A DNA stretch of 35,931 nt from Minisyncoccota bacterium. GTDB lineage: Bacteria > Patescibacteriota > Minisyncoccia > UBA6257 > 2-01-FULL-56-20. Location of the stretch: positions 152,654 to 188,584 of the forward strand of contig JBAYLC010000001.1 in assembly GCA_041664245.1 (NCBI GenBank), given 5' to 3'. Under the pieces are notes generated by a model. The model saw only the letters and a list, made by a program, of their open reading frames with translations. It was not told where the DNA came from and did no database searches. Position numbers and translations under genes: made by a program. Positions 13,504 to 27,978 of this stretch are shown here, in pieces (within the stretch, counting starts at the first letter, position 1; each line of letters opens with the position of its first letter).

Positions 13504-13603
13504 CACTTAGAAAATCTTACAAAATTGACTCAATTAACTTTATAGGTTAAACTGTAGCGAGGATTATTCCTGATTCATAAATCATAATTATTTATTCTAA
13601 TTT

Positions 13604-13838: not shown

Positions 13839-13909
13839 GGGAGTTTAGTTAAGTGGTATAACTGCGGTCTCCAAAACCGCGATCGGGGGTTCGATTCCCT
13901 CAACTCCCG
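13839..13909 (+). tRNA. tRNA-Trp(CCA)
   Basis: GGGAGTT/AACTCCC, anticodon arm GCGGT-CTCCAAA-ACCGC; promoter TTGATT-17-TAATAT at 13801-13829. Confidence 0.94.
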
Positions 13910-13912
13910 CAT

Positions 13913-13950
13913 TAGAGGCTGCTTGGCGAGGCACGAGTCTAGCAACTCTT
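13913..13950 (+). repeat. tRNA-trailing hairpin element, copy 1
   Basis: 29/38 nt ungapped identity to 27828-27865, which follows tRNA-Glu. Confidence 0.7.
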
Positions 13951-14030
13951 ATGCACCGCCGTCACTCGGGGTTATCCCAGAGTGATGGCGCCCAAGGCGA
14001 CCAACGAGAGAACACAATTTTTTAAAACTA

Positions 14031-14450
14031 TTACTTTGCCTTTCTTATCACGGCAGAGTGAATTTCTTCAGTTAAGGTGTTGTTAATTTTAATCAACCGA
14101 TGTACTTCGTCCTGGAGTTTTAATATTTCTTCGGTGTCCTTATAAGTCTGTTCTGCTTGCTTATCTGAAGCTCGTGCGGCTACTTTTTGACCGACCATAA
14201 TAACTGAGAGAAGAACTAATTGTAAAAACGTTTGGGCAACCCACGATATAAGAGCGGATGTTCCACCTTGAAAAGCTTCTGGTAAACTTATAAATGCTAT
14301 AACGGCAAAAAGATAAGCACACCACATTGTACCTACCGCGCTAGTTATGAACAACGCCAAACGGCCGTTAAATCCAACCTGTTCACGTTTTGTTAAATGA
14401 GGACCAGATTTCGCTCGCTCTTCAATCCACGGATTTGGGGTATGTTGCAT
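14031..14450 (-). CDS. DUF1003-like membrane protein
   Basis: ALFITSAVGTMWCAYLF...QLVLLSVIMVGQ followed by a coiled-coil tail; family recognised by eye. Confidence 0.7.
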   Translation of the reverse strand: MQHTPNPWIEERAKSGPHLTKREQVGFNGRLALFITSAVGTMWCAYLFAVIAFISLPEAFQGGTSALISWVAQTFLQLVLLSVIMVGQKVAARASDKQAEQTYKDTEEILKLQDEVHRLIKINNTLTEEIHSAVIRKAK

Positions 14451-14776
14451 GTTTGTTATTTTATCTATGTGCTAATTATACAAGACTTATTGAGATTTAA
14501 AAAAGTTTAACGGCGGGCGTTTCCTCTACAAAATTTTTCCAATCCACAAACCGTAAATGACTTTGGTAATCGCAATTTGCGGTACAACTCTTATGCCCCG
14601 CCTCCGACGACTGGCGGAGACGGAACTTTTTATTGACAGTTATAGGGTTTACGTTTTAGAATGCGGCGTAACTTTGATATTTCTGAACCCAAGCATGGGT
14701 GCTAAATCTCGCTTTATTTTATAAAGCAGTTTCCTCGATTTAGCGCCCATGCCTGGGTTTTTATTTTATCCCTCCT

Positions 14777-14785
14777 TTATCCACA
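14777..14785 (+). promoter_or_regulatory. Consensus DnaA box
   Basis: TTATCCACA, 18 nt upstream of the -35 at 14804. Confidence 0.5.
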
Positions 14786-14803
14786 AGAAATTAGATTTTT
14801 TGA

Positions 14804-14831
14804 TTGACGTGTTATTCGCGAGAAGTATAAC
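14804..14831 (+). promoter_or_regulatory. Promoter for the fibre-locus leader
   Basis: TTGACG (14804-09), 16 nt, TATAAC (14826-31). Confidence 0.6.
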
Positions 14832-14937
14832 ATGATTCGGTACGAGTTTAAGTTGGTTTTGGTCTCGTTGGGGAAACCGAGGCAGAAGCGACTATGATTA
14901 TGCACGGCTTCTCTAGCGAGAAAATTTCGTGGTCACT

Positions 14938-14989
14938 AAAAGGGTTGTCCTTTGGGTTTTGTACTAAACCTAAAAGACAACCCTTTTTT
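14938..14989 (+). terminator. Strong intrinsic terminator inside the 5' leader (possible attenuator)
   Basis: aaaagggttgtc-c-tttgggttt/aaacctaaa-a-gacaacccttttt. Confidence 0.75.
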
Positions 14990-15324
14990 GTTGCGAAAAA
15001 ATAATTTTCAAAGGTCGATTACAAAATAATTAATAAAAAACTAGCCAACAACAAGTTTCGTCTTGTAATAATCAATAATTTCATCCGGCACTAAATGAGC
15101 CAATTCTAATAATTTGTTGCAGCTAAATCTTTCTCTCGTAAAAGCGGGGAAAAGATTTGGCCGTAACACGGTCAAAATAATTATTTTTACCCGATTATAC
15201 CAATAATTGGGTAAGGTAAAAAGGTCGCCCCCAGTACTAATTTTAAATTAGTCATGGGGTAAAGAAGATAAAAAACAATTAGCCCTTTAATAGTCGAAAC
15301 AAATTTTAGGGCAATAAAATACAT

Positions 15325-16641
15325 ATGAAAAAATTATTAGTAATATTCGGAGCGGTGACGATCGCCATAGTGGGCGCTTCAATGTTTGCCGCTTTTGAAG
15401 CGCACGTTATAAACGTAACCGCGACGATCGAGAACGCTCTTACGGTTCCAACCACGCCGATTCTTTTTGGCACGGTTTTCCCGCAGGAACAAATTGATAA
15501 GCATTTAAGTGTTGCGCTTTCTAGTTCTTTTTTAGCCGAGAATCAAGGTCGGGTTGATACAGTGAATTATATGATTCGCCAGAAACCGAAATGTGGTTTT
15601 ACAACAGACAACGGTAAGAATTTGATCGGCGAGACCAGGACCGGAGAAGTTGTTATTGATGCCAATAGCCCTGGTGGTTATAGGATTGACTGTGGTGTAA
15701 ATCCAAATCTAAACCCGACGACGGATACTGGAGCAGTAATACAAGGAACATGGGGAGTTCTCCCATCTCTTTGTCCTTATCTCTCAAAACATTCCAGTAA
15801 CGCCACCGACGTAAACGTTCCGGCTTTCCATCAGCCGTTCTCGGTTGCTAATGGTGTAGTTAGTTGGACTGAGGCTGAAGGAACTCTCTCAAAACCAAAT
15901 CAAACTTCGGCTGATTGGACAATCGATTTGAAGGTGCCATGTTTCGGTGGTCATTGCGCCCAAGATTGGAATGATTTCGTGAAAAAAATTAATCCACTCG
16001 CCGATCCGGCAGCATATACTCAGCCAATTGCAAACGAACATAAAGTTTTCGGTTGCGATCTTTGGGTTGAAACGACTGGCGTTAATAGTAAGTCGCGTGA
16101 AATTCCTCTCTACAAAGAAACTGGTGATTCTTCAACAACGCTCGGTCCTATTCAGGGTCACGTGACCTACGATACGACCAGTGCCGGCAAATTAGCCGGA
16201 ACGATTAAAGTGGATTCAGGTTCTCTTGTCGCCGACCACAACTACGTGCTTGTACTTAATGGGCCTCGTGGCGGTGGAGTTTTACCCGGAAACACCAATG
16301 GTCTTTTGGCCGATTGGGCTTGTTTGCAACCTACACCAGGTCTAAGCAACGGCTGGGATGGTTGGTGGGTTAATCAGACCGACAATACCGGCGCAACAAA
16401 GTGTGAGCTCGCTCCAGGTGATGTTAAACTCGAAGGTTATTACAACTTCCAATTTAACGTTACAGGTGCCCAACTCGAAGCAGGATATTCTTTCAATCCT
16501 GCCCTCCCCGTTGGAACGTATAGTGGGGTTCAATTCTTAGTAAAGGATTTAAATACCGCTTTGTGGGATACCGTTCTTGAATACCCGGGTGTTGGTGAAA
16601 CAGACAGCACGCCGAGTGAGTTTAGTTTCGTTGTAAATTAA
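15325..16641 (+). CDS. Secreted beta-rich protein with a SipW-type signal; putative major fibre subunit (TasA/CalY-like)
   Basis: MKK + hydrophobic core + FA|AFEAHVINVTATIE, then ILFGTVFPQE; Cys motifs; second C-terminal domain; no C-terminal anchor. Confidence 0.7.
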   Translation: MKKLLVIFGAVTIAIVGASMFAAFEAHVINVTATIENALTVPTTPILFGTVFPQEQIDKHLSVALSSSFLAENQGRVDTVNYMIRQKPKCGFTTDNGKNLIGETRTGEVVIDANSPGGYRIDCGVNPNLNPTTDTGAVIQGTWGVLPSLCPYLSKHSSNATDVNVPAFHQPFSVANGVVSWTEAEGTLSKPNQTSADWTIDLKVPCFGGHCAQDWNDFVKKINPLADPAAYTQPIANEHKVFGCDLWVETTGVNSKSREIPLYKETGDSSTTLGPIQGHVTYDTTSAGKLAGTIKVDSGSLVADHNYVLVLNGPRGGGVLPGNTNGLLADWACLQPTPGLSNGWDGWWVNQTDNTGATKCELAPGDVKLEGYYNFQFNVTGAQLEAGYSFNPALPVGTYSGVQFLVKDLNTALWDTVLEYPGVGETDSTPSEFSFVVN

Positions 16642-16667
16642 AACGAAAGATTATTATCTACTCCTTC

Positions 16668-16698
16668 TCCGGTTTACTGTCATAGACAGTAAACCGGA
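16668..16698 (+). other. Perfect 14-bp hairpin after the first fibre gene
   Basis: tccggtttactgtc-ata-gacagtaaaccgga; no U-tract. Confidence 0.7.
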
Positions 16699-16791
16699 AG
16701 ATTGAGCGATTTAAGTCGGCATAGTGATCACGCAAGGTCTAATCTATAAAAGCTATTTGACATAAATAGTAAGCGTGGAATAATGGTTGAT

Positions 16792-17316
16792 ATGGAAGAA
16801 GTCCAAAATAGTAATCAAAATAATCAAGAAAATAAGGGTCTGGGAGGGAAGTGGCGAATGAATTGGATGAAGCCCTGGCTTGAAAAACAAGCTGGCGGAC
16901 CCCTTAAAATCCGGGATAAAATAATCGGAATAGTCCTTATTATTATCTTTCTCTTTGTTTTTTATGTGGTTTTAGACGCGAATAAATATCGCGCGCTGGT
17001 TCATATTATTCCAGGAGAAGGCAAGGTGGGAATCAATCCGACAATAGAATCTCTTGATTTTGGGGATCTTTCCCCGGGAACTAGCCAGGTTCGAAGAGTG
17101 AAGATCAATAACGGAATCTTTATGCCGGTGTATGTGATGATTTGGAAAACCGGAGGAATCAGCGATTTGATGACGATTAGCGATAATTATTTCAAAGTTA
17201 AACCCGGAGAAGAAAAGCAGGTTGAGTTCCCAGTTTATGTACCAGCTTCGGCAGTAGTTGATGCAAACTATACCGGACGGGTCTATCTCTTTAAGATTCC
17301 AACTTTTGGGCTTTAG
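16792..17316 (+). CDS. Single-pass membrane protein with an extracytoplasmic beta-sandwich-like domain
   Basis: TM IIGIVLIIIFLFVFYVVL then LDFGDLSPG; start moved to the second ATG because TTGACA (16757)/AATAAT (16779) overlaps the first. Confidence 0.7.
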   Translation: MEEVQNSNQNNQENKGLGGKWRMNWMKPWLEKQAGGPLKIRDKIIGIVLIIIFLFVFYVVLDANKYRALVHIIPGEGKVGINPTIESLDFGDLSPGTSQVRRVKINNGIFMPVYVMIWKTGGISDLMTISDNYFKVKPGEEKQVEFPVYVPASAVVDANYTGRVYLFKIPTFGL

Positions 17317-17328
17317 TTTTCTGCTCGA

Positions 17329-17877
17329 ATGAAAAAAAAAGAAATCGAACAAAGCCAACCGCAGGTTGAGCCAGAAATAAAGGTGGAAACTGGAAAACCA
17401 AAGAAAAAGAAAAGCCCTCTTCGGTCTTTTCTGAATTTTCTGGTTTACGTGGTTATTATCGTGGGGATTGTTTATGGGTTGCCCAAATTTCTAGTTTGGA
17501 AACTCAAAACAAATTACCCAATGGCGGCGATTACCTCGGGTTCAATGTGGCCAGTTCTAAAAACCGGGGATCTGGTTTTTATCAAAGGAGTAGAAAACCA
17601 ATCCCAGATACAACTGAAAGACATTATTGTTTTTCGGAATCGAATGAATAATACGCTTACTATCCACCGCGTGGTGAATCTCAGAGAAAACAAGATCACC
17701 ACAAAAGGCGACGCTAATTTTTCCGAAGACACGCCAATTGATTTTAGTGATGTCATCGGCAAAACCTTGGTTTGGCGTGGCGGGCCGCTGCATATCCCTT
17801 ACCTAGGATCAATTACGGTTTTCATTAACGATTTAATTAAAACTAAAAACGGGGGAGGTACTGGAGGTAAAAACTGA
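17329..17877 (+). CDS. Signal peptidase I, SipW/Sec11 (S26B, Ser-His) type
   Basis: N-terminal TM; ITSGSMWP (Ser), GDLV, TIHRVV (His in place of the LepB Lys), TKGDAN...D. Confidence 0.9.
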   Translation: MKKKEIEQSQPQVEPEIKVETGKPKKKKSPLRSFLNFLVYVVIIVGIVYGLPKFLVWKLKTNYPMAAITSGSMWPVLKTGDLVFIKGVENQSQIQLKDIIVFRNRMNNTLTIHRVVNLRENKITTKGDANFSEDTPIDFSDVIGKTLVWRGGPLHIPYLGSITVFINDLIKTKNGGGTGGKN

Positions 17878-17930
17878 AACACTCCTGAAGTGTAAAAAGG
17901 GTTAAGGATATTATGTTTATAAATTATTAA

Positions 17931-19478
17931 ATGAAGAAGGAAAAATTCGTTGATTGTATTATTTTGCCAAAAAAAAGGCAGTCGTCCCTAAAACGAAGTT
18001 GCCAAAAGAAGGGGATTTTTAAAAAGTTGGTAATTTTAGAAAAAGAGGAGAATTCCGGCTTGAATTTATTTTTCAAAAATTTCTGGGATAAAATTTTCGA
18101 TTCTTTCGGAGAATTTAAATTAACTTTAAGTTATATTTTTAAACTGCTTTTAGTTTCCAAAATCGGTTTGATTTTAGTGCTAGTTACACTCGTAGTGCCG
18201 CTCACGGCTTTTGAGGCGCACGTGGTCAATGTTACGGCGACGATTGAGAGAAAACCCTGTCTAGCATCTGAAATTCGCTCAATGGGGTATTGGAAAAATC
18301 ATCCTGATCAGAGAATTTTTTCCCAAACAGTTGGTAACACCGCAGTGACTAATGATAGCGAGGCAAATGCGGTTTTCTCTCTTTCGAATAATTCCATGGC
18401 TAATAAACTTAGGAAGCAACTTTTAACCTTGAAGTTTGATATTGCTTATTTCGATTCCGGAAATGCGATTATTGGAGGAGGGGATAGCACTACGCTTTCG
18501 GAATTGGCGGCGCAGGCCGATGAAGCGCTTTTAGCCGATCCGCAGAATCCCGACCAAATATCCCATTTTCATAATTTAATTGAGGGAATTGTTACTAGAG
18601 AAACAGTTTCGACCTGCGAAGTTTGTCCAAAGGGGAAGGAGGTCTATTGGTACAATTTTAACGTTAATCATTCAGATCCAATCATCTATGATCTCCGAGG
18701 CAATATTAATCACGGCGATCATGTAAGTGCTATTTTCCGAATTAATCCGGCTTGTAGTGATATTCAACTTTCGCTTGTAAGTTACAAAGCGCCATCGGAT
18801 ATCTTCAGCGAAAATACCGCCGGTGAACAAATTGTTTTTGCGCAACAAACAGGAACGTTTAATGGCGGCACAAGCACCTATTCATTGGAAGTGGATGTGC
18901 CGGCTTGTTATTTCCAAATCGATTTTGCAAAAGGACCGGTAATTGAACACCTTGGTCCAGTCGGCAGCGATAATTTCTACTCGGCTCAAGGGCGGCTTAT
19001 TTCCGCCGACAATGGCGATCCAGGCGGCCCGAGTTGTAATCCGTCCTTAGATAATAGAAATAATGATTTAGGTGGCGAAGCTGGTTCATCTAGTACAGAA
19101 TTGTCCGAGGGTTTGGACTTAAATAATCTTAAAGCCGGCATTCTCGATATTATCCAGCCATTAATTCAGGGCGAAGAGGATCTTGCTCCAAACGATGCTT
19201 CAACAAGCACTGCTACTGTTAGTACAACCATAATAAACGAGAGTAGTGAAGCGACCACGACGATTAGCGAAAACTCAACCGATATTCCTTCGCCAGTTTC
19301 AGATCCAAATCCAGCTTCATCAACTCCAGATTCTATTTCAACACCACCTTCAACTGATTCAGCTCCATCTTCTGCGGCGACAGAGCCAGCCCCGTCGGTA
19401 TCCGATCCAACTTCATCCCCACCGGCAGAAACAACTTCTCCTCCCACCTCGAATCCAGCGCAAGAGGCTGCTTTATGA
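17931..19478 (+). CDS. Second AFEAH-motif secreted protein with a Pro/Ser/Thr-rich tail; putative minor/tip or anchoring subunit
   Basis: Long basic N-region, hydrophobic segment, LTAFEAHVVNVTATIE (18207-18248), GYWKNH motif, low-complexity C-terminus. Confidence 0.7.
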   Translation: MKKEKFVDCIILPKKRQSSLKRSCQKKGIFKKLVILEKEENSGLNLFFKNFWDKIFDSFGEFKLTLSYIFKLLLVSKIGLILVLVTLVVPLTAFEAHVVNVTATIERKPCLASEIRSMGYWKNHPDQRIFSQTVGNTAVTNDSEANAVFSLSNNSMANKLRKQLLTLKFDIAYFDSGNAIIGGGDSTTLSELAAQADEALLADPQNPDQISHFHNLIEGIVTRETVSTCEVCPKGKEVYWYNFNVNHSDPIIYDLRGNINHGDHVSAIFRINPACSDIQLSLVSYKAPSDIFSENTAGEQIVFAQQTGTFNGGTSTYSLEVDVPACYFQIDFAKGPVIEHLGPVGSDNFYSAQGRLISADNGDPGGPSCNPSLDNRNNDLGGEAGSSSTELSEGLDLNNLKAGILDIIQPLIQGEEDLAPNDASTSTATVSTTIINESSEATTTISENSTDIPSPVSDPNPASSTPDSISTPPSTDSAPSSAATEPAPSVSDPTSSPPAETTSPPTSNPAQEAAL

Positions 19479-19537
19479 AGAACTAGTTTAACAACTCTCA
19501 TTTGTCTTGTCGATGATTTGGGAATAAAAAGTAATTC

Positions 19538-20467
19538 ATGAAACGAGCCCTAACGTTAATTCTTGTTGTGGCGGCGATCGGAGCTGCAATTTTTTTATTT
19601 CGCAGCGAGCTAGGAAATTTTCTTGCGCGACTTGAAAGCCGAATTCTTCCTTGTGTGAAACCTATTACCTACACCATCGGTTCATTTGATTCACGATTTG
19701 GCATATCAAAACAAACTTTTTTGAGCGCGGTAGCAGAGGCTGAAGCAATATGGGAAAAACCCGTTGAAAAAAATCTTTTTGCACACGAAGCAAACGGAAA
19801 TATAAAAATAAATCTAATATATGATTTCCGGCAAGAAGCAACACAGAAATTGATGGCGCTGGGAATCGTTGTTGGCGACAATAAAGCGTCATATAGCGAA
19901 ATTAAATCGAAATACGATGCTATGCAGGCTGATTATATAAAGCAAAAATCTGTATATAATACTCGGGTTGCGGTATTTCAAAATCGTGAAAGCGCATACG
20001 AAACAACAGTAACGCATTGGAATAAACAGGGTCGCACGACGCGTGATACTTATGACCAACTAAGTGCCGAAAAGGCATCGCTTGTGGCGGAAGCGGCGGC
20101 GATCAATATTCTCCAAACAAATCTCAACACCGAAGCTGCGAATATTAATGCAATTGTAGTTGCCCTAAATCGTCTTGCTGCTGAATTGAATCTAAGCGTC
20201 GATCAATTTAACATGGTCGGACAAGAACGTGGTGCGGAATTTGAAGAGGGTATCTACAAAAGTAGCGTAAGTGGTGAAGAGATAGATATTTATCAATTTG
20301 ATACAAAAACGAGATTAGTGCGTGTGTTGGCGCACGAACTTGGCCACGCCTTAGGGCTGCCACACGTTTTGGATTCGAAAGCAATCATGTACCGATTAAA
20401 TGGAAGTACCAATGAAAATCTCACGGCAGCTGATCTTGCGGAGCTTAAAAAGCACTGCGGTTTATGA
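19538..20467 (+). CDS. Matrixin-like (M10/metzincin) zinc metalloprotease with a coiled-coil insert
   Basis: N-terminal hydrophobic anchor; AHELGHALGLPH (HExxHxxGxxH) and Met-turn AIMY. Confidence 0.85.
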   Translation: MKRALTLILVVAAIGAAIFLFRSELGNFLARLESRILPCVKPITYTIGSFDSRFGISKQTFLSAVAEAEAIWEKPVEKNLFAHEANGNIKINLIYDFRQEATQKLMALGIVVGDNKASYSEIKSKYDAMQADYIKQKSVYNTRVAVFQNRESAYETTVTHWNKQGRTTRDTYDQLSAEKASLVAEAAAINILQTNLNTEAANINAIVVALNRLAAELNLSVDQFNMVGQERGAEFEEGIYKSSVSGEEIDIYQFDTKTRLVRVLAHELGHALGLPHVLDSKAIMYRLNGSTNENLTAADLAELKKHCGL

Positions 20468-20495
20468 ATAGAATAACGATTTTAACTTCCTGTCT

Positions 20496-21008
20496 CTATC
20501 TTAGAAAATTCCTTCCAATCCCTAAAATAAAAACGATTACCACAATCACAATCTGCGACAAAATTCCAACGCGATAGATTCCGTTTCCTAGTTTATGCTG
20601 AATTGCTTTGTGAAATTTTTGAAGTGTTATGAGCGGCTCTTTTTTTATTTTGAAATAAACGAATTGTAATGCGTCAGGCAACACACCGCCAACAGCACCG
20701 ATAAACGCAATTTGCAAGGCCAATCCGCTATTACTGAAAAAAGTCAAAGCAACTGCAAATCCAAAAATACAATCAAAAGAAATTTTTATAAGATCCCTAA
20801 TGAATTTTTTGCCTAAAACCATATCCATTTTACTAATATCATTAGGCGAATTTTTATCAGAAATAAACGATTCACGTTCGTAATCGTCGTGAGGGATAGC
20901 ATCCAAAATAAAATGGCTCAAAAAAGCGGCAACAAATCCCAATAGGGGATACTTTGGGAAAATCTGAGCAACCGCGGCACCGACAAGCGCGTGAGTAGCA
21001 AGAATCAT
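20496..21008 (-). CDS. Membrane-bound metal-dependent hydrolase-like protein
   Basis: MILATHALVGAAV, SHFILDAIPHDD, GVLPD, FHKAIQH: His/Asp motifs set in TM helices. Confidence 0.6.
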   Translation of the reverse strand: MILATHALVGAAVAQIFPKYPLLGFVAAFLSHFILDAIPHDDYERESFISDKNSPNDISKMDMVLGKKFIRDLIKISFDCIFGFAVALTFFSNSGLALQIAFIGAVGGVLPDALQFVYFKIKKEPLITLQKFHKAIQHKLGNGIYRVGILSQIVIVVIVFILGIGRNFLR

Positions 21009-21097
21009 ATGTCGATTAAGTATATCATTATTCAATTATTGCTTTATTTTTATTACTATTGACTTTTTATTATTTAGCTCTTACACTTAAACCAATT

Positions 21098-21150
21098 CCT
21101 AAGACCCCGGGTAGCCCACAGAAAAGGGCATAAAACCCGCCGAGGAAAAG
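21098..21150 (+). promoter_or_regulatory. Ribosomal protein L10 leader (autoregulatory RNA)
   Basis: AAGAC..CGGGT..hairpin..TAAA..ACCCG.CCGAGG upstream of rplJ fits the L10-leader core as I recall it; TTGACT at 21059 upstream. Confidence 0.7.
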
Positions 21151-21274
21151 CCAAAATTTGGCATTTCTCGCGACTCCTAGGAAGTCGCTTTTTTCTTAGT
21201 TTTTCTTGAGAAAAATTTCGCTTAGAAAAACTTAGACCCCGCAGAATGCGGGGAAAATACATTATGAATTTGCC

Positions 21275-21787
21275 ATGAAAACAAAAATTCAAAAAAAAGC
21301 TGAATTAGAAAAAGGTAAAAAACTGGCCGAAAAAAGCCAAGCTTTGATTTTCGCCGATTTCTCGTCCATTAAGGCCGAAGATCTTCGGAAGCTACGCCAG
21401 GAATTAAGCAAAGTAAACGCCAGCTTTTTAGTTATCAAAAAACGCTTACTTAATTTGATTCTTAAGGAAAAGGGGATTGAGTTTGACGGAAGTAAATTCA
21501 AGTTTTCCATTGGCACAGTTTTTTCCGAATTCGATTTAGAAAATTCCTGCAGCTCAATAGTTAAATTTTTCTCCGCGCTTGAAGGAGCTGGAGCAAAAAA
21601 AGTTTTGGGAGGTTACGATTTTAAAAACAAAGCTTTCATGGAAGCAGAGAGAGTTATCTTCATCGGCAAACTTCCCGCTAGAGAAATTCTCCTTGGCCAA
21701 CTCCTTGGCATGCTCCAAGCCCCCATTAGCTCTCTGATTTATTTGATGAAGGAAAAGTCGAAGAAAGTTGAGCTCTCTCCGAGTTAA
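21275..21787 (+). CDS. rplJ: 50S ribosomal protein L10
   Basis: ALIFADFSSI..EDLRKLRQEL, VIKKRLL, LPAREILLGQLLGMLQAP; precedes rplL. Confidence 0.92.
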   Translation: MKTKIQKKAELEKGKKLAEKSQALIFADFSSIKAEDLRKLRQELSKVNASFLVIKKRLLNLILKEKGIEFDGSKFKFSIGTVFSEFDLENSCSSIVKFFSALEGAGAKKVLGGYDFKNKAFMEAERVIFIGKLPAREILLGQLLGMLQAPISSLIYLMKEKSKKVELSPS

Positions 21788-27750: not shown

Positions 27751-27822
27751 GGCCTCATCGTCTAGTGGCTAGGACGGCGCCCTCTCACGGCGCAAACAGG
27801 GGTTCAATTCCCCTTGAGGCTA
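27751..27822 (+). tRNA. tRNA-Glu(CTC)
   Basis: GGCCTCA/TGAGGCT, GCGCC-CTCTCAC-GGCGC, T-loop TTCAATT. Confidence 0.92.
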
Positions 27823-27827
27823 CATAC

Positions 27828-27865
27828 TAGAATTTGCCTAGCGAGGTACGAGCTTAGCAAATCTT
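27828..27865 (+). repeat. tRNA-trailing hairpin element, copy 2
   Basis: 29/38 identity to 13913-13950 with compensatory changes. Confidence 0.7.
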
Positions 27866-27949
27866 GTACCCCAAAGAAGCGAAGCGAAAGCGGGGCAGTA
27901 TAATTTCCGCCACTGGCGGGGTGCAACGATTTAGAATTTTTGAAGAAAT

Positions 27950-27978
27950 AAAAAAGCCACCCGTTATAAAACGGGTGG
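27950..27978 (-). terminator. Terminator of the pyrE-pyrF fusion gene
   Basis: ccacccgtt-ataa-aacgggtgg with a T-run on the minus strand. Confidence 0.75.

What the first reader, a model, noticed from the sequence alone, without database searches (positions are those of the whole stretch)
13909..13957. Conserved, covarying hairpin element directly 3' of two different tRNA genes (Trp and Glu)
13913-13950 (TAGAGGCTGCTTGGCGAGGCACGAGTCTAGCAACTCTT) and 27828-27865 (TAGAATTTGCCTAGCGAGGTACGAGCTTAGCAAATCTT) match at 29/38 positions without gaps. They start 4 and 6 nt after the tRNA discriminator base. Both fold into the same hairpin with two G-C/A-T compensatory swaps, capped by C-G, tandem G.A/A.G, G-C and a GNA triloop (GCA or GTA). 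GNA triloops with sheared G.A pairs are known to be very stable in single-stranded DNA, and GCGAAGC also occurs at 27879-27885. Each copy is followed by further GC hairpins and then a convergent accessory gene (DUF1003; OPRT-OMPDC). The two Thr tRNAs and tRNA-Val lack it. Hypotheses: a small non-autonomous element targeting tRNA 3' ends, or a pre-tRNA trailer processing signal.
Basis: partly seen in the sequence, partly recalled or inferred. Interest (0 to 1): 0.7.

Follow-up and report, generated by a model that had tools for sequence, protein, structure and literature searches.

The report
Widespread capped hairpin repeat behind tRNAs
The two hairpins behind tRNA-Trp and tRNA-Glu are real copies of an undescribed 25-base hairpin cap that recurs in several bacterial phyla and in fungal contigs, usually nowhere near a tRNA. 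Here it lies in the rearrangement-prone DNA just behind tRNA genes, so it is probably not a dedicated tRNA signal.

Summary
The two 38-mers match at 29/38, both fold into the described hairpin, and a covariance model finds only these two intact copies in the window (E about 1e-11 and 1e-10).

The central 25-mer, TGC-NNN-GCGAGG-N-ACGAG-NN-TAGCA, occurs in 60 further public loci. These come from Rhodanobacteraceae, Lachnospiraceae, Desulfobacteraceae, a Kaiserbacteria genome and fungal-type contigs. Only one of the 60 lies within 300 nt of a tRNA.

The 25-mer always caps a helix whose flanking pairs covary. It is often embedded in 150-230-nt multi-helix intergenic elements present several times per genome. 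No Rfam family, plasmid, viral contig or paper matches it.

In the window's own Patescibacteria lineage, the DNA behind tRNAs varies between strains:
- In a relative that is near-identical at these loci, the Trp hairpin is replaced by a compensated variant and preceded by a roughly 147-nt insertion that duplicates the tRNA 3' end.
- The same relative keeps only the left arm of the Glu hairpin.
- The window carries a decayed repeat of tRNA-Trp 3' end plus hairpin, 5.5 kb downstream.

Best reading, at moderate confidence: a strand-specific, REP/MITE-like capped-stem module that acts as a folded single strand and sits in the tRNA-3' insertion hot spot. Its function is unknown.

The parts
13839..13909 (+). 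tRNA-Trp(CCA), no encoded CCA; the hairpin unit starts 4 nt after its discriminator
   Evidence: ARAGORN; Rfam RF00005 65.6 bits
13913..13950 (+). Hairpin copy 1. The 25-nt cap is 13920-13944 (TGCTTGGCGAGGCACGAGTCTAGCA); the outer stem is AGAG/CTCT.
   Evidence: (42.4 bits, E 9.5e-11)
13943..13960 (+). First copy of the 18-nt direct repeat CAACTCTTATGCNCCGCC; overlaps the 3' outer stem of copy 1
   Evidence: two matches; 0.03 expected
13957..13990 (+). GC-rich hairpin 'R2' (CGCC...GGCG) directly after copy 1
   Evidence: read from the sequence; fold; largely retained, with several substitutions, in the relative's locus L032
14585..14602 (+). Second copy of the 18-nt direct repeat, 642 nt from the first. 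It runs into a second R2-type hairpin, CCGCC...GGCGG (14598-14617).
19447..19501 (+). Decayed direct repeat of the last ~14 nt of tRNA-Trp plus the hairpin. It matches copy 1 at 28/38 and the block 13898-13952 at 73% over 55 nt. It no longer folds and overlaps the stop codon of ORF 17931-19478.
   Evidence: not detected by the covariance model
27751..27822 (+). tRNA-Glu(CTC), no encoded CCA; the hairpin unit starts 6 nt after its discriminator
27828..27865 (+). Hairpin copy 2. The 25-nt cap is 27835-27859 (TGCCTAGCGAGGTACGAGCTTAGCA).
   Evidence: (44.9 bits, E 1.5e-11). Identical in two other samples. Only the left arm is present in the relative's locus L031.
27879..27885 (+). GCGAAGC mini-hairpin. 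The same motif recurs at fixed positions in other family members.
27907..27919 (+). R2-type hairpin CCGCC-ACT-GGCGG in the Glu trailer
   Evidence: read from the sequence; compare 14598-14617

Best explanation
The two hairpins are copies of a widely distributed, strand-specific 'capped-stem' repeat module, not a tRNA-specific signal.

The module is a 25-nt cap. From base to tip it has three closing pairs (UGC/GCA), a small internal loop, two G-C pairs, two tandem G.A pairs (CGAG opposite CGAG), one G-C pair and a GNA triloop. The internal loop comes in two forms: subfamily A has a U.U mismatch and subfamily B has GNA opposite GUA. The cap sits on a helix of arbitrary, covarying sequence.

I infer that it works as a folded single strand of the tRNA-sense strand. 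In the window that strand would be transcribed with the tRNA as its 3' trailer, but the same fold is possible in single-stranded DNA. The cap would nucleate and lock a stable hairpin.

In other bacteria the module is one arm of 150-230-nt multi-helix intergenic elements, resembling REP/MITE repeats or small-RNA genes, present several times per genome.

In this Patescibacteria lineage the copies lie in the first bases behind tRNA genes because that is where DNA is repeatedly inserted and exchanged. The hairpin is part of the junction sequence that gets duplicated, replaced or truncated in those events.

Shown: family membership, structure and covariation, strand asymmetry, absence of a tRNA link outside Patescibacteria, and strain-level rearrangements at both sites.

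Inferred: that the element is or was mobile or recombinogenic, and that it is transcribed. What binds it, and what it does, remain unknown.
For: - Family: the 19-specified-base pattern hits 26 stretches in GTDB species genomes and 34 in metagenome contigs. I estimate about 4 chance hits in the GTDB genomes under uniform base composition. The unspecified positions fall into two recurrent subfamilies.
- Structure: flanking pairs covary, for example pair 18-32 is GC 13 / AU 11 and pair 11-39 is GC 21 / AU 7 / UA 4. The covariation score is 0.198 against 0.115 in shuffles, reached by 0 of 500 shuffles. A second copy in L008 changes U-A to C-G.
- Strand: 47 of 54 units fold better on the given strand, by 4 kcal/mol on average. 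The model scores 44.9 bits on that strand against 7.4 on the reverse.
- Larger elements: long closing stems differ between copies but stay paired in Lachnospiraceae and Rhodanobacteraceae. One MAG holds four copies and another three.
- No tRNA link in general: one of 60 loci has a tRNA within 300 nt.
- Hot spot in this lineage: in L032 the Trp hairpin differs at about 14 of 41 positions with compensation, while the alignment as a whole is 89% identical by mean column identity, a figure lowered by the gap columns of the insertion. It is preceded by a ~147-nt insertion plus a 23-nt tRNA 3' duplicate. L031 keeps only ATTTGCCTA of the Glu hairpin, followed by different cargo.
- Repeats in the window: a relic repeat of tRNA 3' end plus hairpin lies 5.5 kb downstream, and there is an 18-nt direct repeat.
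- No terminator lies between either tRNA and its hairpin.
Against: - No transposase or recombinase gene is present in the window, and no protein family other than LysR-type regulators (three loci) recurs across taxon groups in the loci held.
- No clear target-site duplications flank the Lachnospiraceae copies.
- Some Rhodanobacteraceae copies appear to sit at orthologous sites in different genera (flanks alike in L002/L017 and L001/L009). That fits a stable functional RNA gene better than an active mobile element.
- Near-identity of 25 nt across phyla and in fungal contigs is not how REP families behave.
- Copy number in the window's own genome is unknown, because only 36 kb is seen.
- Invariance inside the cap among the fetched loci is partly forced by the search pattern.
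- No expression data exist.
Confidence: 0.45

Rival explanations
1. The cap is a functional RNA domain. It is a protein- or metal-binding hairpin that is one arm of a new class of structured non-coding RNA. In the window it is a tRNA 3' external transcribed spacer element, released by RNase Z and acting as a 3' exonuclease block, a processing determinant or a small RNA.
For: - G-U pairs and tandem G.A pairs exist only on the tRNA-sense strand.
- The multi-helix architecture has conserved junction residues and small GNRA or GNA hairpins in Lachnospiraceae and Rhodanobacteraceae.
- Flanks suggest conservation at apparently orthologous loci across genera.
- All four Patescibacteria copies are co-oriented with their tRNA.
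- No terminator lies between tRNA and hairpin.
- The GA-G...C-GA arrangement is the tandem-G.A-plus-G-C metal-binding motif known from hammerhead stem II (my own knowledge).
Against: - Relatives with 71-78% identical MurF have tRNA-Glu without the hairpin, and a relative that is near-identical at these loci has lost half of it. So it is dispensable for the tRNA.
- Orientation relative to neighbouring genes is mixed in Lachnospiraceae.
- No Rfam family matches even at E <= 10.
- No expression data exist.
Confidence: 0.27
2. The hairpin is part of the attachment (att) site of integrative elements that target tRNA 3' ends. Its two arms are bound as double-stranded DNA by a recombinase supplied in trans, and strand exchange occurs in or beside it.
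For: - A direct repeat of tRNA-Trp 3' end plus hairpin bounds a 5.5-kb segment. That segment lies between rpmG/tRNA-Trp and rplJ-rplL, where secE, nusG, rplK and rplA normally lie (the usual gene order is my own knowledge).
- L032 has a tRNA 3' duplicate directly followed by a hairpin.
- The L031/window breakpoint falls inside the hairpin stem.
- L030 compared with L029 shows an island of about 2.8 kb at tRNA-Glu.
Against: - No integrase is present in the window or in the 5.5-kb segment.
- The CGAG blocks are direct, not inverted, within the arms.
- An 11-3-11 geometry does not fit tyrosine or serine recombinase core sites (my own knowledge).
- 59 of 60 other family members are not at tRNAs.
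- Covariation of arbitrary flanking stems is not expected for a protein-binding double-stranded DNA site.
Confidence: 0.13
3. One reading: the hairpin itself is a small non-autonomous mobile element that homes specifically to tRNA 3' ends, for example through an HUH enzyme acting on single-stranded DNA.
For: - Both intact window copies start 4-6 nt after a tRNA. My rough estimate is about 2% by chance, given 5 tRNA flanks among roughly 40 intergenic regions.
- GNA triloops and GCGAAGC are classic stable single-stranded DNA hairpins (my own knowledge; compare PMC10085684).
- The trailer of tRNA-Thr(GGT) reads TAGAAAATCTTAC, which resembles the hairpin's outer flanks without the cap, like an empty site.
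Against: - There is no tRNA preference outside Patescibacteria.
- No HUH or other transposase gene is present.
- The copies have no target duplication of their own.
- The insertions that do duplicate tRNA ends (L032, L030) lack the cap.
Confidence: 0.1
4. Chance similarity or an ordinary terminator hairpin.
For: Nearest-neighbour folding z-scores of the isolated 42-mers are unremarkable.
Against: The model E-values are 1e-10 to 1e-11. There are 60 further loci with the same 25-mer. No U-tract follows the hairpin.
Confidence: 0.02

Closest known systems
REP/BIME elements (repetitive extragenic palindromes, mobilised by RAYT Y1 transposases) and REPINs
   Same: Short imperfect palindromes in extragenic DNA. 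They often lie between convergent transcription units, and both window copies face a convergent gene. They form mosaics with other small palindromes; here these are R2 (CCGCC...GGCGG) and GCGAAGC. They have a strand-specific fold and are hot spots for insertions.
   Different: - REP families are species- or genus-specific, whereas this 25-mer is shared by Gammaproteobacteria, Firmicutes, Desulfobacterota, Patescibacteria and fungal contigs.
- There is no general GTAG head.
- No RAYT gene was seen.
- Here the apex is conserved and the stem varies, which is the reverse of REPINs.
tRNA-targeting integrative elements and casposons
   Same: In the relatives' loci (L032, L030, L024), inserted DNA directly behind a tRNA is bounded by a duplicate of the tRNA 3' end. 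In the window, tRNA-Trp and a decayed repeat of its 3' end (19447-19501) bound a 5.5-kb segment. For the A. boonei casposon, a 15-bp target duplication overlaps the tRNA-Pro 3' end and the T-loop region is part of the target (PMC5137440).
   Different: No integrase, casposase or terminal inverted repeats are present. The duplicates are 19-24 nt. The hairpin family is mostly not at tRNAs.
K-loop/K-turn and hammerhead stem-II type tandem sheared G.A motifs; d(GCGAAGC)-type GNA mini-hairpins
   Same: Tandem 5'-GA/3'-AG pairs next to a G-C pair and a small loop. The GNA triloop has a freely variable middle base: A, U, C and G are all seen.
   Different: There is no 3-nt bulge or second helix as in a K-turn. 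There is no CUGANGA/GAAA hammerhead core. Binding partners are untested. The resemblance rests on my own knowledge of these motifs, not on a test.
MITEs and dispersed hairpin repeats such as ERIC, Correia and RUP
   Same: The Lachnospiraceae copies are 215-235 nt and occur several times per genome. Their terminal inverted sequences are TACTTTTCACAC...GTGTGAAAAGTA.
   Different: The core is conserved while the terminal stems differ between subfamilies and remain paired. No target-site duplication or parent IS element was identified.

Membership tests
REP/BIME (RAYT-associated) | Imperfect palindrome of 20-40 nt in extragenic DNA | tested here: met
REP/BIME (RAYT-associated) | Tens to hundreds of copies per genome | tested here: inconclusive
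   The 36-kb window holds two intact copies and one relic. Other genomes have 1-4 exact-pattern copies each. Whole genomes could not be scanned.
REP/BIME (RAYT-associated) | Conserved GTAG tetranucleotide at the foot of the hairpin | tested here: not met
   The window and L032 copies have YTAGA. Rhodanobacteraceae, Lachnospiraceae and the other copies have unrelated flanks.
REP/BIME (RAYT-associated) | Cognate Y1 (RAYT) transposase gene in the genome | not testable with these tools
   None is encoded in the window. No protein family other than LysR-type regulators (three loci) recurs near the 58 classified loci. The rest of each genome was not available.
REP/BIME (RAYT-associated) | Sequence family confined to a species or genus | tested here: not met
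   The same 25-mer occurs in four bacterial phyla and in fungal-type contigs.
tRNA-targeting integrative element (att site) | Direct repeats containing the tRNA 3' end flank the inserted DNA | tested here: met
   Window 13898-13952 against 19447-19501. L032 55-178 and about 603-749, each followed by a 19-23-nt duplicate. L024 has a 24-nt duplicate. L030.
tRNA-targeting integrative element (att site) | Integrase or recombinase gene inside the element | tested here: not met
   ORFs between 13910 and 19447 are a conserved 139-aa membrane protein, hypothetical proteins and an S26/S24-like peptidase.
Any described RNA family (Rfam 15) | Match to a covariance model | tested here: not met
   Gathering threshold. 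E <= 1 to 10 on small regions. Only tRNAs and unrelated families were found.
Intrinsic terminator | GC-rich hairpin followed directly by a U-tract | tested here: not met
   The only terminator near copy 2 (27957-27978) is on the minus strand and serves the convergent gene.
Integron attC site | Conserved R/L boxes at the base of the hairpin with a variable apex | tested here: not met
   The pattern is reversed: the apex is invariant and the base is variable. No R box was seen by eye in the sequences read (not searched by pattern).
K-turn / K-loop (L7Ae-type ligand) | Tandem sheared G.A pairs adjoining a 3-nt bulge or loop, bound by an L7Ae-family protein | not testable with these tools
   Tandem GA next to a 5-nt G-GNA-C apex is compatible with a K-loop in sequence only. 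There are no structural or binding data.
Small self-cleaving ribozymes (hammerhead, twister, twister-sister, hatchet, pistol, HDV-like) | Match to the family model or core | tested here: not met
   No Rfam hit at E <= 10 on the Lachnospiraceae element or the window trailer. My manual check for the hammerhead CUGANGA/GAAA core was negative.

The most novel reading that the evidence does not exclude
The CGAG-GNA-CGAG cap marks a new, cross-phylum (and possibly cross-domain) class of structured nucleic-acid element. It would be either a complex-folded non-coding RNA whose conserved arm recruits a universal factor or metal ion, or a single-strand-DNA-based mobile module. In Patescibacteria it has become coupled to a tRNA-3'-end insertion system that copies the last 19-24 nt of the target tRNA.
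Probability: 0.25. Interest if true: 0.85.

Novelty: new variant of a known kind. Interest (0 to 1): 0.6.

Why it matters
If the family is what it appears to be, a 25-nt hairpin kept almost unchanged from Patescibacteria to Gammaproteobacteria, Clostridia, Desulfobacterota and fungi has gone unannotated. Rfam has no matching family, and it is absent from the plasmid and viral collections searched and from the papers searched.

A conserved apex on freely covarying stems is the signature of a recognition or folding module. Finding its partner could reveal a new RNA class or a new way small repeats spread.

For Patescibacteria genomics, the results show that the bases just behind tRNA genes are a site of repeated small insertions and cassette exchange. 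This matters for annotation and for strain comparison.

For this particular finding, the tRNA link is lineage-specific context and not the element's defining property.

Tried and rejected
- Rfam at the gathering threshold and at permissive E-values, on the window, the trailers and 38 related loci. Nothing relevant was found.
- Viral contigs: 0 hits. Plasmid BLAST with the Rhodanobacteraceae and Lachnospiraceae elements: no match.
- Literature: searches for the sequence strings, for GNA-triloop repeats and for Patescibacteria tRNA-targeting elements found nothing matching.
- Synteny route for orthologous hairpins. MurF relatives at 71-78% identity have tRNA-Glu inverted and no hairpin. Homologues of the 139-aa gene lie in unrelated contexts without the hairpin. 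Exact-protein look-ups of the OPRT-OMPdc gene returned only the same strain.
- Gene association. Flanking genes in Lachnospiraceae and Rhodanobacteraceae are unrelated housekeeping genes. All-against-all clustering of 1047 ORFs found only LysR-type regulators recurring across taxon groups, in three loci, which I regard as chance.
- Ideas considered and dropped on sequence grounds: hammerhead, hairpin or HDV-like ribozyme; sarcin-ricin loop mimic; SRP domain IV; boxA/boxB; CsrA site (the GGA is not conserved); ssoA CS-6; dif, hix or res recombinase sites (wrong geometry); integron attC; sequencing adaptor artefact.
- Alternative genetic codes for the ORF-poor contigs. L050 has no open frame of at least 150 codons under table 11, 4 or 15.
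- A tRNA-like reading of the minus strand of the L032 insertions. The acceptor strands do not pair.
Full report
**1. The observation**

The window is a Patescibacteria (Parcubacteria-type) chromosome segment. It encodes ribosomal proteins, SecY, DnaE, the mraZ-murF cluster, rplJ-rplL and five tRNAs. The closest MurF homologues are named Patescibacteria or Liptonbacteria.

Copy 1 scanned against the whole window scores 29 at 27828 and 28 at 19462. The next-best position scores 25 and the rest 21 or less. The exact core GCGAGGYACGAG occurs only at these two places.

The units begin 4 and 6 nt after the discriminators of tRNA-Trp (13909) and tRNA-Glu (27822). Neither tRNA encodes CCA. Nearest-neighbour folding of the isolated 42-mers is unremarkable (z -0.75 and -1.48), because the program treats the G.A/A.G pairs and the triloop as an open 9-nt loop. 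The evidence for the hairpin therefore has to be comparative.

**2. The hairpin belongs to a large, undescribed family**

I searched with TGCNNNGCGAGGNACGAGNNTAGCA, which has 19 specified bases.
- It found 26 stretches in one-genome-per-species GTDB contigs. I estimate about 4 by chance under uniform base composition.
- It found 34 stretches in metagenome contigs.
- It found none in viral contigs.

The carriers are Rhodanobacter, Rudaea, Fulvimonas and Lysobacteraceae (Gammaproteobacteria), Lachnospiraceae and Acetatifactor, Desulfobacteraceae, an uncultured rumen bacterium and one Candidatus Kaiserbacteria genome. Several ORF-poor contigs also carry it. One set of these encodes an intron-split, highly reducing polyketide synthase and so is fungal.

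The free positions are not random. They fall into two subfamilies.
- Subfamily A is TGCTT(R)GC...GC(Y)TAGCA, with a U.U mismatch.
- Subfamily B is TGCG(N)AGC...GCGTAGCA, with a 3x3 loop of GNA opposite GUA.

The middle base of the triloop is A, U, C or G. All of this fits a G.A-closed GNA loop.

Rfam 15 has nothing for the family, either at gathering thresholds or at E <= 10. Plasmid BLAST and full-text searches for the sequence also found nothing.

**3. Structure**

In every locus the 25-mer sits on a helix that continues into flanks of unrelated sequence. I counted pairs on 39 distinct 49-mers.
- The pairs that my pattern did not fix covary. Pair 18-32 is GC 13 / AU 11. Pair 11-39 is GC 21 / AU 7 / UA 4. 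Pair 12-38 is UA 22 / GU 5 / UG 3 / CG 2 / GC 2.
- The covariation score is 0.198 against 0.115 in shuffles, reached by 0 of 500 shuffles. Slid controls are lower.

Caveats: many of the sequences are paralogues, and invariance inside the cap is forced by the search pattern. Independent support comes from a second copy in L008, found with a looser pattern, where U-A becomes C-G.

The fold is strand-specific. The tandem G.A pairs become C.U on the other strand. Of 54 units, 47 are more stable on the given strand, by 4 kcal/mol on average. The covariance model scores 44.9 bits on that strand against 7.4 on the reverse.

In Lachnospiraceae the capped arm is part of a 215-235-nt element. A long closing stem differs between copies but stays paired, with G-U pairs on this strand. 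The junction is conserved and holds a small GNRA hairpin, GAGC-GARA-GCGUG.

Rhodanobacteraceae carry a different 150-170-nt multi-helix context, with a GCGAAGC mini-hairpin at a fixed position. Single genomes hold several copies: four in one Lachnospiraceae MAG and three in one Rhodanobacteraceae MAG. Some loci appear orthologous between genera, judged from their flanks (L002/L017, L001/L009).

**4. Not a tRNA element in general**

Only L024 (Kaiserbacteria) has a tRNA within 300 nt of the hairpin. The tRNAs in L021, L048 and L059 are about 2-4 kb away.

Flanking genes are unrelated housekeeping genes. Clustering 1047 ORFs from the loci shows no recurrent transposase, integrase or reverse transcriptase. 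Only LysR-type regulators recur, in three loci, which I regard as chance.

**5. What happens behind tRNAs in this lineage**

A Logan assembly from a closely related strain (MurF 98% identical) gave both loci.

The Glu locus (L031):
- The tRNA is followed by GATACAGCATTTGCCTA|TGAAAAAT.
- The trailer and the left arm of the hairpin are therefore homologous to the window.
- Homology stops inside the stem. A gene called there (119 aa as called; the call starts inside the tRNA) replaces the hairpin apex, the right arm, the GC hairpins and the OPRT-OMPdc gene.
- The distance from tRNA-Glu to the Vut_1 gene is 1640 nt in the window and 310 nt in L031.

The Trp locus (L032), reading downstream from the tRNA:
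- a terminator;
- a protein-less insertion of about 147 nt;
- a 23-nt duplicate of the tRNA 3' end, with one mismatch;
- a hairpin that differs from the window's at about 14 of 41 positions.

The variant hairpin keeps the fold: UGCU/AGCA becomes CGCU/AGCG, GG/UC becomes AA/UU, and AGAG/CUCU becomes AGAA/UUCU. CGAG...CGAG is kept and the loop is CCUG. The alignment as a whole is 89% identical by mean column identity, a figure that counts the gap columns of the insertion. Change that dense and that well compensated looks like replacement by another family member, not point mutation (my inference).

L032 has a second insertion of the same kind, 124 nt plus a 19-nt duplicate, behind tRNA-Thr(GGT), where the window has none. 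L030 has one behind tRNA-Glu. These insertions share the core GGGTCGGG-hairpin-CCCGTGGCGGAAA-hairpin and a segment complementary to the host tRNA's T-loop. They do not contain the cap.

In L024 the cap lies inside such a unit. The order is tRNA-Met, 128 nt, the cap, 5 nt, then a 24-nt duplicate of the tRNA 3' end.

In the window itself:
- 19447-19501 is a decayed direct repeat of the last ~14 nt of tRNA-Trp plus the hairpin. It matches the block 13898-13952 at 73% over 55 nt and copy 1 at 28/38.
- The 5.5 kb in between lies between rpmG/tRNA-Trp and rplJ-rplL. That is where secE, nusG, rplK and rplA normally lie (the usual gene order is my own knowledge).
- An 18-nt direct repeat, CAACTCTTATGCNCCGCC, occurs at 13943 and 14585. 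It overlaps the hairpin's 3' stem, and each copy runs into a CCGCC...GGCGG hairpin. The same hairpin type follows copy 2.

More distant relatives (MurF 71-78% identical) have tRNA-Glu inverted and no hairpin. Both window hairpins lie between a tRNA and a convergent gene, and no terminator separates tRNA and hairpin.

**6. Interpretation**

Three things are shown:
- a conserved, strand-specific cap on covarying stems;
- a broad distribution without any tRNA link;
- strain-level replacement, truncation and duplication at tRNA 3' flanks in this lineage.

The reading that covers all three is a REP/MITE-like capped-stem module that acts as a folded single strand. Here it occupies, and is part of, the junction sequences of the tRNA-3' insertion hot spot (confidence 0.45). 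In the window it would be transcribed as the tRNA trailer. Whether that matters for the tRNA is untested. Relatives lose it or lack it, so it is not essential for the tRNA.

The main rival is a genuine ncRNA domain, a protein- or metal-binding arm (0.27). This is favoured by the complex conserved architectures and by the apparently orthologous Rhodanobacteraceae loci.

An att-site role as double-stranded DNA (0.13) fits the direct repeats. It does not fit the direct orientation of the CGAG blocks, the covarying flanks, or the 59 loci without a tRNA.

**7. Comparison with known systems, and novelty**

The closest known kinds are:
- REP/BIME repeats;
- MITE-like hairpin repeats;
- tRNA-targeting integrative elements and casposons (15-bp target duplication overlapping a tRNA 3' end; PMC5137440);
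- tandem-G.A motifs, at the motif level (K-loop, hammerhead stem II, GCGAAGC mini-hairpins).

Membership of each fails on at least one defining feature that I could test; the K-turn/K-loop motif could not be tested. I therefore rate the find as a new variant of a known kind, a dispersed structured hairpin repeat. I put a 0.25 chance on it marking a truly new element class.

Noticed in passing
L032 55-178 and about 603-749; L030 about 8560-8411 (minus strand): Protein-less insertions of about 125-150 nt lie directly behind tRNA-Thr(GGT), tRNA-Trp and tRNA-Glu in relatives. Each ends in a 19-23-nt duplicate of the host tRNA's 3' end and carries a segment complementary to that tRNA's T-loop. They share the core GGGTCGGG-hairpin-CCCGTGGCGGAAA-hairpin. 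The window lacks them and Rfam has no match.
   Followed up: partly
L024 1875-2056: In the Kaiserbacteria contig, the unit behind tRNA-Met begins with a copy of the tRNA's 5' acceptor strand (GCCGGGG). It ends with a T-arm-like segment and the acceptor 3' strand. It could therefore fold as an acceptor/T-arm mimic with about 115 nt, including the cap, in place of the D and anticodon arms.
   Followed up: no
window 14450-15325: An 875-nt stretch without ORFs is largely conserved in the relative. It holds a strong promoter-like site, TTGACA-18-TAGAAT, at 14633-14662. This is followed by a long hairpin at 14686-14759 with a T-run, which may be a small RNA. A second long hairpin lies at 14938-14987. 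Only generic hairpin matches appear in Rfam.
   Followed up: partly
window 13910-21275: secE, nusG, rplK and rplA are missing between rpmG/tRNA-Trp and rplJ-rplL. In their place are a conserved 139-aa membrane protein, secreted hypothetical proteins, an S26/S24-like peptidase and an M10 metalloprotease.
   Followed up: partly
window 13505-13530 (trailer of tRNA-Thr GGT): The trailer CTTAGAAAATCTTAC resembles the outer flanks of the hairpin units (YTAGA...TCTTRTRC) without the cap, like an unoccupied site.
   Followed up: no
L030 compared with L029: Two samples of one population differ by about 2.8 kb behind tRNA-Glu. The extra DNA encodes an HTH protein, a trypsin-like protease and small ORFs. 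L030 also has a degenerate duplicate of the tRNA 3' end.
   Followed up: no
L037/L045 and L052/L058; L034, L050, L057, L065: In fungal or eukaryote-like contigs, sequence conservation starts exactly at the cap and continues about 100 nt downstream, while the upstream sequence is unrelated. In L058 the cap lies 155 nt after the last exon of a highly reducing PKS gene.
   Followed up: partly
L029 8753-8791: A possible distant relative of the hairpin lies in an intergenic region with no tRNA. It reads AACTGTCCG-CGAG-TGTAG-CGAG-CGGTTACAGTT, with CGAG...CGAG and a 5-nt loop. The covariance model does not report it at this position at E up to 10.
   Followed up: no
L070 about 2600-2800: The sequence downstream of the 139-aa gene homologue reads like bacterial RNase P RNA (GAGGAAGGTCCGGAC...). 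This locus was not scanned with Rfam.
   Followed up: no
L047 10036-10205; L060 578-650; L011 3074-3268: Known RNAs lie elsewhere in the fetched loci and are unrelated to the hairpin: TwoAYGGAY, RAGATH-18 and 6S RNA.
   Followed up: no
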